From the NCBI RefSeq assembly GCF_002113885.1, contig NW_018406231.1, forward strand, positions 850,211-914,210: a DNA stretch of 64,000 nt, written 5' to 3'. A program made the position numbers. How positions within the stretch are numbered: position 1 is the stretch's first letter; each line of letters starts with the position of its first letter. The DNA comes from Mizuhopecten yessoensis. Its lineage: Eukaryota. Shown piece by piece: positions 33,001-36,000 of the stretch.

Positions 33001-36000
33001 CAAAGGATGCAACAATTTAAAAAAAAAAAAAACTTTTAAAGGATTAATTTAAACTGTGGAAAAGGGGTTTGCAAATTAAATAAAAAAAATCCCTACCTAC
33101 TGTAAACATAAAATGCTTGGTTTGTTGAAGGTACTATTGTAACAGGAGAGGTAAAATGCACGGTCAGACCAGGGTTCAAACCCGGAACCCTCCGAAATCT
33201 AGACAGACGCTCTACCAAAAGAGCTATCTGGTCGCCGACAATCGACCCAGTCCAGTTCCGCTACACTCGTATAACATAACTTATAACAGGTCATTTGTCA
33301 ACTATTTTTTAACAGATGTGGTTAGGCTGTTATGCGGCGCCTGTCAAAAGTATCTTGCTGTGTTAAATCTCTAACATTGTTGGAGAAGTTATGCTGGCCT
33401 AACTGGTAAATTTACAATAACATTCTCCGATTAATATTGGTCGTTTCAGCAACATGGTTATTTTTCTGTTGTAGACTTACTTTAAGATCTGGCGCAGTGC
33501 ACATAAGAGCCATGTTTGATAGACACAAAGATGAGCGAGACATGGCGAAAGTTGAGAAAATGATGGAGCAAGCTGAGCGTTATATACACTGGGTTGTCCC
33601 CAAAAGGAAACAGTGTAAGTAAAATGATGGAGCAAGCTGAACGTTATATACACTGGGTTGTCCCCAAAAGGAAACAGTGTAAGTAAAATGATGGAGCAAG
33701 CTGAACGTTATATAAACTGGGTTGTCCCCAAAAGGAAACAGTGTAAGAAAAATGATGGAGCATGCTGAACGTTATATACACTGGGTTGTCCCCAAAAGGA
33801 AACATTGTAAGTATAATGATGGAGCATGCTGGACGTTATATATACTGGGTTGTCCCCAAAAGGAAACAGTGTAAGTAAAATGATGGAGCAAGCTGAACGT
33901 TATATACACTGGGTTGTCCCCAAAAGGAAACAGTGTAAATAAAATGATGGAGCAAAGCTGAACGTTATATACACTGGGTTGTCCCCAAAAGGAAGCAATG
34001 TAAGTAAAATGATGGAGCATGCTTGACGTTATATATACTGGGTTGTCCCCTAAAGGAAACAGTGTAAGTAAAATGATGGAGCAAGCTTGACGTTATATAT
34101 ACTGGGTTGTCCCCTAAAGGAAACAGTGTAAGGAAAATGATGGAGCAAGCTGCACGTTATATACACTGGGGTGTCCCCAAAAGGAAACAGTGTAAGTAAA
34201 ACGATGGATCAAGCTGAACGTTATATACACTGGGTTGTCCCCAAAAGGAAACGGCGTAAGTAAAATGATGGAGCATGCTTGACGTTATATATACTGGGTT
34301 GTCCCCAAAAGGAAACAGTGTAAGTAAAATGATGGAGCATGCTTGACGTTATATATACTGGGTTGTCCCCAAAAGGAAACAGTGTAAGTAAAATGATGGA
34401 GCAAGCTGAACGTTATATACACTGGGTTGTCCCCAAAAGGAAACGGTGTAAGTAAAATGATGGAGCAAGCTGAACGTTATATACACTGGGTTGTCCCCAA
34501 ATGGGAAACAGTGTAAGTAAAATGATGGAGCAAGCTGAACGTTATATACACTGGGTTGTCCCCAAAAGGAAACGGTGTAAGTAAAATGATGGAGCAAGCT
34601 GAACGTTATATACACTGGGTTGTCCCCAAATGGGAAACAGTGTAAGTAAAATGATGGAGCAAGCTGAACGTTATATACACTGGGTTGTCCCCAAAAGGAA
34701 ACGGTGTAAGTAAAATGATGGAGCAAGCTGAACGTTATATACACTGGGTTGTCCCCAAATGGGAAACAGTGTAAGTAAAATGATGGAGCAAGCTGAACGT
34801 TATATACACTGGGTTGTCCCCAAAAGGAAACGGTGTAAGTAAAATGATGGAGCATGTTGAACGTTATATACACTGGGTTGTCCCCAAATGGGAAACAGTG
34901 TAAGTAAAATGATATTGAACTTTTAAAATAAAAAAAATAAAAATATATACTCAAATTTAACTACTGTGTACCAGAAAAGTTTTGCTTCATCAAACTTTTG
35001 CCCTTCATATCAGGGATAATCCTGGAGGGGGCAAAGGGGCCACATGACCCCTCAAAACTGAAACTGACCCCTTCATGTTCCAGTTTTCTTTTAATTTCAC
35101 ATAGAATGGCCGGCCCCTCTTAATTTTGATATGGACTTAAAATTGCTGAAAATGGCCCACATCTCTCAAATTCCAGGATTTTCCCTGTACAATCAATAAC
35201 GATGTATATTTTTTGTATCAATATTCGCTGTAATGATAAATTCACCATCAGTATGAACGGTAAGAAAGGGGAAAAGTAACCCGCAGCACAAGTTTCCTGG
35301 TATACAGCAGCATCCAAGTTATGACTTTTTCAGATTTCCTGATCTGTCATTTTGAGCTTTTTATATTTGAATTATATCCTGGTGTATGACATTGTGTTGT
35401 CTTTATTTATCTTTAAATCGCCGTAGTCCAGAATGACGAGGAGATTTTGACTGAAGGATCTTGTACACAGTAACACTTTCATTTAAGGGAATATAGTCTA
35501 TTTCTGGAGTTCAGTGCTGTGTATCACAAGGGTTGTGAAGATATTAAACGTATCACAATACTTGTCACCAACTTGTGTACAAACTGTTACCATAGTTTTC
35601 CTAGATTTGAAACAAACCTTGATAAGAAACAAATCTTAAGTGTTTGTATTTCCTGCTGAATTAATTTTAATTTTTTAAGTGATCTATCTCCTAAATTGTA
35701 AAGCATAATAAAGCAATTTTTATTTTTGAAATAATGTGGTGGTTTTTTTGATAGAACAAGAGGAAATTAATGCATAAGTGAAGGGCCATAACCCATACAA
35801 ACCTTTTATAAAGTATCACAATACTTTCGACGACTGCCATGATGCATCAGCACACAAGTATGATAGGTTAGCACACCAGTGAATCCTTGAATTGTGTAGA
35901 CATACAGTTACAGTGCATGTTAACTGCCGTTCAGTTTTATACCGAGTTATACCAATCTATACCATTATGGTTGTTTATCGATGTGTTCCTCTATTTATAC

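What the first reader, a model, noticed from the sequence alone, without database searches (positions are those of the whole stretch)
33557..34912. NDUFB9 exon end plus splice donor amplified into ~21 tandem copies
Seen in sequence: the last ~58 nt of coding exon 2 and its donor (T|gtaagt) form the unit of a 64/65-bp array. About 20 near-identical 5' splice sites therefore follow the real one. Read-through past the first donor meets TGT AAG TAA, so use of any downstream donor gives a premature stop. In the distal part, 64- and 65-bp units alternate to form a 129-bp higher-order repeat. Inference: an essential complex I gene must select the first of ~21 equal donors by exon definition. Alternatively, copy number could tune productive versus NMD-destined splicing, making the array a VNTR-based expression dial.
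Basis: partly seen in the sequence, partly recalled or inferred. Interest (0 to 1): 0.68.

Follow-up and report, generated by a model that had tools for sequence, protein, structure and literature searches.

The report
Scallop gene's splice donor repeated 21-fold
In the Yesso scallop's NDUFB9 gene, a 64-base piece covering the end of exon 2 and its splice signal is copied about 21 times in a row, an arrangement already known from several human genes, where the cell normally uses the first copy.

Summary
Window 33557-34913 is a 64/65-bp minisatellite of 21 full units plus 8 bp. Unit 1 is the last 58 nt of exon 2 plus GTAAGT. All 21 units keep GT, 18 of 21 keep GTAAGT, and the last eight units form four 129-bp higher-order blocks. 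Reading past donor 1 meets TAA at 33620-33622.

The gene is NDUFB9 of Mizuhopecten yessoensis. Each of four exon peptides, searched singly, lies exactly in the 141-aa NCBI protein P0001, whose model uses donor 1. Three other scallops have collinear orthologues with an invariant KQ at the junction, so the exon is ancestral and the array derives from it.

The intronic copies are decaying as non-coding DNA: only 2 of 20 keep the peptide. 16.6% of the window is tandem array.

The arrangement is not new. Human F7, IFI6, CBS, LMNB2 and PDGF carry minisatellites whose first monomer spans an exon-intron boundary, and the most upstream donor or donors are used (PMC1557585).

Best reading: a neutral, lineage-specific slippage product, with donor 1 chosen by upstream-first or exon-definition selection. 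No RNA, population or long-read data could be examined, so the "expression dial" idea stays untested. This is a new member of a known kind, of modest interest.

The parts
31062..31159 (+). NDUFB9 coding exon 1 (start codon to a GC-type donor; the last 2 bases begin split codon 33)
   Evidence: The peptide of 31062-31157 equals P0001 residues 1-32. The donor context is CAG|GCAAGT.
33475..33614 (+). NDUFB9 coding exon 2, 140 nt. 33475-33556 is unique sequence; 33557-33614 is the exonic part of repeat unit 1.
   Evidence: The peptide of 33476-33613 equals P0001 residues 34-79. It matches Pfam Complex1_LYR at 25.7 bits against a cut-off of 24.8. All 15 of 15 solved-structure hits are NDUFB9 chains.
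33615..33620 (+). Authentic 5' splice site GTAAGT of intron 2, the last 6 bases of unit 1
   Evidence: This is the junction used by the annotated protein P0001: residue 80 (Y) is T from 33614 plus AT from 36077-36078.
33620..33622 (+). In-frame TAA, met if donor 1 is not used
   Evidence: the first stop is at codon 49 of the frame starting at 33476.
33557..34913 (+). 64/65-bp minisatellite: 21 full units plus 8 bp, carrying 20 reiterated pseudo-donors after the authentic one
   Evidence: Mean pairwise unit identity is 93.5%.
34390..34905 (+). Higher-order part of the array: four 129-bp blocks, each a 64-bp plus a 65-bp unit (units 14-21)
   Evidence: blocks 1-3 are identical and block 4 has 2 differences.
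34906..34913 (+). Terminal 8-bp partial unit, identical to the first 8 bases of every unit. It is either a truncated copy or the ancestral microhomology.
   Evidence: (unit 22).
36077..36132 (+). NDUFB9 coding exon 3, 56 nt
   Evidence: The peptide of 36079-36132 equals P0001 residues 81-98. The acceptor is ...TTGCAG| and the donor ATG|GTAAGC.
38397..38528 (+). NDUFB9 coding exon 4, including the stop codon
   Evidence: The peptide of 38397-38525 equals P0001 residues 99-141. 17 of 19 solved-structure hits are NDUFB9 chains, the best being 8esw_B9 at E 3.2e-13.

Best explanation
The array is a lineage-specific minisatellite. It arose by tandem duplication, through replication slippage or unequal exchange, of a 64-bp segment straddling the exon 2 / intron 2 junction of the Yesso scallop NDUFB9 gene. 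Tandem arrays are very common in this genome. Only unit 1 is coding. The 20 downstream units are intronic passengers that decay freely but still carry good 5' splice sites. Productive mRNA is made by joining donor 1 (after 33614) to the acceptor before 36077.

The 20 pseudo-donors are most likely ignored, or used only rarely for the nearest one or two. The splicing machinery probably pairs the exon's 3' splice site with the first suitable donor downstream of it (upstream-first 'oriented scanning' or exon definition), as shown by experiment for the same arrangement in human F7 and observed in LMNB2 and PDGF. Any leak to a later donor would give a transcript with a stop 6 nt into the retained sequence, encoding an 81-residue truncated protein.

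Shown here: the array, the gene model, the stop, the ancestry of the exon, and the decay of the copies. Inferred: the slippage origin, the near-exclusive use of donor 1 and how it is selected.
For: Array and anatomy.

Gene model: the four exon peptides, each searched or matched singly, sit at residues 1, 34, 81 and 99 of the 141-aa NCBI protein P0001. NDUFB9 identity comes from Pfam and from solved structures.

The exon is ancestral. The Pecten maximus, Ylistrum balloti and Argopecten irradians orthologues (139-142 aa) align without gaps over the exon 2 end and share KQ before the junction. Part of the unit-encoded peptide also aligns to mammalian NDUFB9.

The array is young and lineage-specific. 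All units resemble the M. yessoensis exon (91-98% identity to unit 1), whereas that peptide segment is only 7 of 19 identical to each other scallop.

The intronic copies are unconstrained. Of 20, 2 keep the peptide, 13 carry missense or stop changes (4 with stops) and 5 have a 1-bp length change.

The pseudo-donors are neither eroded nor protected: 3 changes in 120 hexamer positions against 47 in 1200 elsewhere, Fisher p 0.62.

The setting is repeat-rich. The window has 22 arrays covering 16.6% of it, 12 of them 200 bp or longer, and a second array lies in intron 3 of the same gene. Tandem repeats are the largest repeat class (21.7% of the assembly) in another scallop (PMC10225492, passages).

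Precedent: PMC1557585 (abstract, Introduction and Discussion read). It reports minisatellites whose first monomer spans an exon-intron boundary in F7, IFI6 (6-16), CBS, LMNB2 and PDGF. Only the most upstream donor is used in F7, LMNB2 and PDGF, and the first three in IFI6 and CBS.
Against: No RNA data of any kind could be examined, so donor usage rests on an automated gene model and on homology.

Work with two strong 5' splice sites 45 nt or more apart found almost exclusive use of the intron-proximal (downstream) site (PMC3413131, passages). That is the opposite of what this gene needs, and these donors are strong at +1 to +6 and 64 nt apart. All experimental precedent is mammalian.

The 204- and 268-nt exons made with donors 2 and 3 are still of ordinary size, so some leakage is likely.

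The predicted RNA structure does not set donor 1 apart. Every unit has the same 7-bp stem across its donor, and the fold is unremarkable (z -1.30).

The three identical 129-bp blocks could reflect assembly uncertainty rather than recent expansion.
Confidence: 0.7

Rival explanations
1. Expression dial. A measurable fraction of transcripts uses downstream donors, mainly 2 and 3, or is slowed by surplus U1 binding. That fraction grows with copy number, so array length tunes productive against stop-containing NDUFB9 mRNA and is visible to selection.
For: Donor 2 sits in a unit differing from unit 1 at a single base, and 11 of 21 donors share the identical 9-mer. The exons made with donors 2 and 3 would be 204 and 268 nt. 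In IFI6 and CBS two pseudo-sites are used besides the authentic one (PMC1557585). The title of Lievers 2001, seen only as a reference in PMC2630376, links the CBS boundary VNTR to reduced enzyme activity. An ABCA7 intronic VNTR is reported to affect splicing (PMC5954066, search listing only).
Against: There is no sign of selection on the pseudo-donors in either direction (3 of 120 against 47 of 1200, p 0.62). The copies decay like neutral intron sequence. The array is one of 22 in a 64-kb window. No 26-84-aa protein in the public protein set shares words with the read-through peptide (a weak negative). No polymorphism or expression data could be seen.
Confidence: 0.12
2. Assembly artefact, in part. 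The array exists, but its copy number, and especially the four near-identical 129-bp blocks, is wrongly reconstructed.
For: Three of four 129-bp blocks are identical, which is the kind of sequence assemblers resolve poorly. I recall, from no call, that the public M. yessoensis reference was built mainly from short reads. P0001 sits on a 1.09-Mb contig.
Against: Units 3-13 carry many distinct, ordered variants, which collapse or duplication artefacts do not produce. There is no N in the window. Similar arrays are frequent nearby, and tandem repeats are abundant in scallop genomes. Assemblers more often shorten than lengthen such arrays.
Confidence: 0.1
3. Reverse direction. A pre-existing intronic satellite was exonised, so the exon end derives from the repeat rather than the repeat from the exon.
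For: Only that the unit-encoded segment is the least conserved part of the protein (37-63% identity against 70-80% elsewhere).
Against: Four scallop orthologues are collinear and gap-free across the segment, with invariant residues at its end. Its first part aligns to mammalian NDUFB9. The segment is fast-evolving in all four species, and changes private to M. yessoensis are not clearly in excess (3 of 19 against 1-2 of 19 in the others).
Confidence: 0.02
4. The locus is unproductive: splicing goes to an intron-proximal donor, and the working NDUFB9 is encoded elsewhere.
For: The intron-proximal preference for strong tandem donors in vitro (PMC3413131).
Against: All four exons are intact, with canonical acceptors, and match the annotated protein exactly. 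The protein is conserved at 66-72% identity with other scallops. Only one M. yessoensis protein appeared in the exon 2 and exon 4 searches (1 hit of 3 candidates; 1 M. yessoensis protein among 4 hits of 5 candidates).
Confidence: 0.03

Closest known systems
Human F7 intron 7 37-bp VNTR (PMC1557585)
   Same: The first monomer spans the exon-intron boundary, and the authentic donor is followed by identical pseudo-donors. Only the most upstream site is used physiologically, and the gene is essential.
   Different: F7 has 5-9 monomers, with 4 nt of exon per monomer and a weak donor (UGG/gugggu). Here there are 21 monomers, 58 nt of exon per monomer and GTAAGT donors. The organism is a mollusc, usage is unmeasured, and polymorphism is unknown.
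Human CBS exon 13 / intron 13 31-bp VNTR, c.1444_1467+7(16_21) (PMC2630376 passages; PMC1557585 Introduction)
   Same: Similar copy number (15-21). The unit holds a substantial exonic part (24 nt) plus the donor.
   Different: [quoted passage not shown] Nothing comparable is known here.
Human IFI6 (6-16) intron 2 minisatellite, 25 pseudo-sites (PMC1557585 Introduction)
   Same: About two dozen reiterated donors follow the authentic one.
   Different: There the two nearest pseudo-sites are constitutively used. Here any such use meets a stop after 6 nt.
Human LMNB2 (100-bp, 10-15 copies) and PDGF intron 4 (81-bp, 16-18 copies) minisatellites (PMC1557585 Introduction)
   Same: Long units, many copies, and only the authentic donor is used.
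   Different: Vertebrate genes. Details were not seen beyond that one paragraph.
Model substrates with two strong tandem 5' splice sites (PMC3413131)
   Same: Competing strong donors spaced more than 45 nt apart in front of one acceptor.
   Different: Those splice almost wholly from the intron-proximal site. This gene needs the intron-distal one.

Membership tests
Exon-intron-boundary minisatellite with reiterated 5' splice sites (F7 IVS7 type) | Head-to-tail array of many monomers of minisatellite size | tested here: met
   21.1 copies of 64 bp at 93% matches; 21 units listed.
Exon-intron-boundary minisatellite with reiterated 5' splice sites (F7 IVS7 type) | The first monomer spans the exon-intron boundary and holds the authentic donor | tested here: met
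   Unit 1 is 33557-33620 and exon 2 ends at 33614. The junction is fixed by the exact match of the exon 2 and exon 3 peptides to P0001.
Exon-intron-boundary minisatellite with reiterated 5' splice sites (F7 IVS7 type) | Downstream monomers keep a donor of the same or nearly the same sequence | tested here: met
   21 of 21 keep GT, 18 of 21 keep GTAAGT and 11 of 21 share the identical 9-mer.
Exon-intron-boundary minisatellite with reiterated 5' splice sites (F7 IVS7 type) | Only the most upstream donor or donors are used in vivo | not testable with these tools
   No transcript data were available. The annotated protein uses donor 1. No truncated read-through protein was found (a weak negative).
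Exon-intron-boundary minisatellite with reiterated 5' splice sites (F7 IVS7 type) | Copy number varies among individuals (VNTR) | not testable with these tools
NDUFB9 / B22 (LYR-family accessory subunit of complex I) | Complex1_LYR domain | tested here: met
   The exon 2 peptide alone scores 25.7 bits against a cut-off of 24.8. PF05347 is precomputed for P0001.
NDUFB9 / B22 (LYR-family accessory subunit of complex I) | Sequence similarity to NDUFB9 chains of solved complex I structures, at the matching positions | tested here: met
   Exon 2: 15 of 15 hits are NDUFB9, E from 7e-4. Exon 4: 17 of 19 hits are NDUFB9, best E 3.2e-13, matching residues 99-139 of a 144-aa chain.
NDUFB9 / B22 (LYR-family accessory subunit of complex I) | N-terminal LYR-type tripeptide region | tested here: inconclusive
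   The 32-aa exon 1 peptide alone gave no solved-structure hit at E up to 10 and only a chance-level Pfam row. It reads ...LFKK... by eye and is conserved among the four scallops.
Higher-order repeat | Units two apart are more alike than neighbours | tested here: met
   For units 14-21, identity two apart is 97-100% and between neighbours 92-95%, giving four 129-bp blocks.
Regulated unproductive splicing (poison splice site coupled to mRNA decay) | The alternative site introduces a premature stop | tested here: met
   TAA at 33620-33622 is in frame for every downstream donor.
Regulated unproductive splicing (poison splice site coupled to mRNA decay) | The alternative site is actually used, and the element is conserved between species | not testable with these tools
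   No RNA data and no other scallop genome sequence were available.

The most novel reading that the evidence does not exclude
The array is a natural 21-way competition among evenly spaced, strong 5' splice sites in which an essential gene depends on the intron-distal site. That is the opposite of the intron-proximal rule found for strong tandem sites in vitro. If donor 1 is used almost exclusively, upstream-first selection is an ancient property shared by molluscs and mammals and holds even for strong sites. If use instead leaks to donors 2, 3 and beyond in proportion to array length, the array is a heritable, rapidly mutating dial on complex I subunit supply. It is also a mutational hazard, because unequal exchange could bring decayed units (4 with stops and 5 with a length change, of 20) into the coding exon.
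Probability: 0.12. Interest if true: 0.55.

Novelty: new member of a known kind. Interest (0 to 1): 0.3.

Why it matters
This extends a class of natural splice-site competition loci, so far described in a handful of human genes, to a mollusc and to a mitochondrial complex I subunit gene. It also has stronger donors and more copies than the best-studied case. With ordinary RNA-seq and long reads it could show whether the upstream-first choice among identical donors is general among animals. It is also a caution for annotation: the array creates 20 decoy donors and a 201-codon open frame on the opposite strand. Beyond that it is most likely a neutral by-product of a repeat-rich genome.

Tried and rejected
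1. RNA structure as the discriminator. Exon 2 plus two units folds no better than shuffles (z -1.30; 23 of 200 shuffles fold as well). The 7-bp stem over the donor is present in every unit, so it cannot single out donor 1.

2. Selection on the pseudo-donors. The hexamers change at 3 of 120 positions against 47 of 1200 elsewhere (p 0.62), so there is no signal either way.

3. Accelerated evolution of the exon copy through exchange with intronic units. The unit-encoded 19 residues are the fast part of the protein in all four scallops, and private changes in M. yessoensis are 3 of 19 against 1-2 of 19 in the others. This is not distinctive.

4. Truncated read-through isoforms in public protein sets. 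No candidate was found in the 26-84-aa range.

5. More distant orthologues through the exon 2 peptide. The every-protein search gave only P0001 plus two weak hits: P0005 (2064 aa, 26% identity) and P0006 (64 aa, 55% identity). I did not fetch or use either.

6. Copies of the unit elsewhere in the window: none.

7. A known RNA family in or near the array. There is only a tRNA-like match in intron 1, and none in the array.

8. A link to the window's virus-like stretch. That stretch is 14.7 kb away and unrelated.

9. Prior description of this locus. No paper holds both 'NDUFB9' and 'yessoensis'. None of the 12 listed of 99 papers on minisatellite, splice site and bivalve terms concerns such a case in a bivalve.

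Full report
**What is there.** Tandem Repeats Finder reports one array at 33557-34913: period 64, 21.1 copies, 93% matches, no indels in its summary, score 2347. Cutting it at the recurring unit start gives 21 full units, 16 of 64 bp and 5 of 65 bp, followed by the first 8 bases of a 22nd.

- A 29-base core of the unit is found 21 times at up to 3 mismatches, all inside the array; none was expected in 100 shuffles.
- Mean pairwise identity of the units is 93.5%.
- Unit 2 differs from unit 1 at one base.
- The window contains no N.

**The gene and the organism.** I searched the spliced model exon by exon and left the joined step out.

- The exon 2 peptide (33476-33613) is 100% identical to one public protein, P0001. 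It is 141 aa and NCBI names it 'NADH dehydrogenase [ubiquinone] 1 beta subcomplex subunit 9-like [Mizuhopecten yessoensis]' (1 hit of 3 candidates).
- Each of my four exon peptides, translated on its own, lies exactly in P0001, at residues 1, 34, 81 and 99. Residues 33 and 80 are the two split codons.
- The window is therefore Yesso scallop DNA. I do not take it for human.
- The coding exons are 31062-31159, 33475-33614, 36077-36132 and 38397-38528.
- Exon 2 alone reaches the Pfam Complex1_LYR cut-off (25.7 against 24.8 bits) and hits only NDUFB9 chains among solved structures (15 of 15).
- Exon 4 hits NDUFB9 chains in 17 of 19 rows, best E 3.2e-13.
- Exon 1 alone hits nothing.

**How the array sits on the gene.** Unit 1 is the last 58 nt of exon 2 (33557-33614, beginning exactly at a codon) plus GTAAGT (33615-33620).

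- All 21 units keep GT and 18 keep GTAAGT. The other three read GTAAGA, GTAAAT and GTAAGG.
- Eleven of 21 have the identical 9-mer AGT|GTAAGT.
- Reading through donor 1 gives TGT AAG TAA, with the stop at 33620-33622. Any transcript spliced from a later donor therefore encodes an 81-residue truncated protein.
- Exons made with donors 2, 3 ... 21 would be 204, 268 ... 1425 nt, against 140 nt with donor 1.
- Units 14-21 alternate 64 and 65 bp and form four 129-bp blocks. Three are identical and the fourth has 2 differences.

**Which came first.** The exon 4 peptide search returned three more scallop orthologues: Pecten maximus (141 aa), Ylistrum balloti (139 aa) and Argopecten irradians (142 aa) (4 hits of 5 candidates).

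- In the alignment of the four database proteins, the end of exon 2 is gap-free, and the KQ before the junction and the following ...CP.GI.HGRY are conserved.
- The first part of the unit-encoded peptide also aligns to mammalian NDUFB9.

So the exon end is ancestral and the array was copied from it, not the reverse. All units resemble the M. yessoensis exon at 91-98% identity, whereas the encoded 19 residues are only 7 of 19 identical to each other scallop. Hence the array arose within this lineage, or has since been homogenised with the exon.

**State of the copies.**

- If read as exon, 2 of the 20 intronic units keep the peptide, 13 carry missense or stop changes (4 with stops) and 5 have a 1-bp length change. 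They evolve as non-coding DNA.
- Their donor hexamers change no more and no less than the rest of the unit: 3 of 120 against 47 of 1200, p 0.62. Nothing suggests that the decoy donors are being selected away or preserved.
- The unit-encoded protein segment is the fastest-evolving part in all four scallops (37-63% against 70-80% identity). Changes private to M. yessoensis are 3 of 19, against 1-2 of 19 in the others. I see no clear sign that the array has driven the exon's evolution.

**Origin.** The window is dense with such arrays: 22 loci covering 16.6% of it, 12 of them 200 bp or longer. One is a 32-bp x 23 array in intron 3 of the same gene. In another scallop, tandem repeats are the largest repeat class at 21.7% of the assembly, and tandem repeats, unlike transposable elements, are not significantly reduced there relative to other scallops (PMC10225492, passages only; its Table S13 could not be seen).

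The array ends with 8 bases identical to the unit's first 8. By inference, the single-copy ancestor may have carried that motif both in the exon and just after GTAAGT. That would be a microhomology of the kind that seeds slippage duplications. A truncated last copy would look the same.

**How it most likely works.** The arrangement is a described class. PMC1557585 (abstract, Introduction and Discussion read) lists minisatellites whose first monomer spans an exon-intron boundary in:

- human F7 (37 bp, 5-9 copies)
- IFI6/6-16 (25 pseudo-sites)
- CBS (15-20 copies)
- LMNB2 (100 bp, 10-15 copies)
- PDGF (81 bp, 16-18 copies)

Only the authentic, most upstream donor is used in F7, LMNB2 and PDGF. 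The first three donors are used in IFI6 and CBS. [quoted passage not shown] By analogy, donor 1 here is chosen because it is the first good donor after the exon's 3' splice site.

Against this, substrates with two strong donors 45 nt or more apart splice almost wholly from the intron-proximal site (PMC3413131, passages). The scallop donors are strong at +1 to +6 and 64 nt apart.

Predicted RNA structure does not help. Each unit has the same 7-bp stem across its donor, and the fold is unremarkable (z -1.30).

**Rivals.**

- The copy-number 'dial' is not excluded and has a human analogue in CBS (reference title seen in PMC2630376). Nothing I could examine supports it, and no truncated read-through protein is in the public protein set (weak).
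- Partial mis-assembly of the near-identical distal blocks is possible. The ordered variants in units 3-13 argue that the array itself is real.
- Exonisation of a satellite is contradicted by the orthologues.
- An unproductive locus is contradicted by the intact, conserved four-exon gene.

**What stayed unchecked.** I could not examine:

- transcripts;
- other individuals or long reads;
- other scallop genomes.
- supplementary tables of papers.

That complex I needs NDUFB9 is recalled knowledge, not a result of a call.

I found no prior description of this locus. No paper holds both 'NDUFB9' and 'yessoensis', and there is no bivalve case among the 12 listed of 99 papers.

**Verdict.** The feature is real and was accurately described. 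It is a new, non-vertebrate member of a known kind, most likely a neutral passenger whose decoy donors are ignored. Interest is modest. Its main value is as a natural test of 5' splice-site choice.

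Noticed in passing
window 31160-31165: Intron 1 of the same gene has a GC-type donor (CAG|GCAAGT) in the model that matches P0001, so it is a GC-AG intron.
   Followed up: partly
window 36799-37537: A second minisatellite lies in the same gene (intron 3): 32 bp x 23.1 copies at 87% matches. It touches no exon.
   Followed up: no
window 34349-34954, minus strand: A 201-codon open frame runs along the opposite strand of the array. The 129-bp block is 43 codons long, so the frame persists. 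It is probably a repeat artefact that gene finders could call. It was among the 13 of 77 frames I left out of the Pfam scan because they lie inside arrays.
   Followed up: no
window 33585-33591 and 33611-33617, and the same places in every unit: Each unit holds a 7-bp inverted repeat (TACACTG / CAGTGTA) whose second arm covers positions -4 to +3 of the donor. It appears as a stem in the predicted fold.
   Followed up: partly
window 49594-50001, plus strand: This is the window's virus-like stretch: a lone 136-codon open frame resembling reverse transcriptase. Pfam RVT_1 scores 29.0 bits, just under the 29.6 cut-off, over profile positions 87-189 of 205. No other retroelement domain appeared in the 29 plus-strand frames scanned, out of 74 frames of 35 aa or more in 48400-53300. 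It looks like a short remnant, 14.7 kb from the array. It is described only.
   Followed up: partly
window 551-976 (-), 46523-48445 (-), 50620-50829 and 53443-53718 (+), 62093-62410 (-): Exons of neighbouring genes by Pfam: FANCA arcN subdomain, FAM192A/Fyv6 N-terminal domain (three pieces), Mss4 (two pieces) and the ATP-dependent DNA ligase domain (64 of 77 frames of 75 aa or more were scanned).
   Followed up: no
window 33161-33233 (-); also about 31840-31960 and 32085-32200: A tRNA-like match lies in intron 1 (Rfam tRNA 30.5 bits against a gathering score of 29; ARAGORN finds none). By eye, two similar stretches further upstream in the intron share sequence with each other. These are possibly tRNA-derived SINE copies.
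   Followed up: no
window 16001-18000 and 20001-22000: GC skew is very strong (0.44 and 0.45) over the 17-bp x 72 and 47-bp x 36 arrays. The first creates open frames of up to 517 codons on the minus strand.
   Followed up: no
window 33938, 34927, 34936: Poly(A)-signal-like hexamers lie on the gene strand, one inside unit 6 (made by its GTAAAT variant) and two just after the array. Whether 21 U1-binding sites upstream matter for them is unknown.
   Followed up: no
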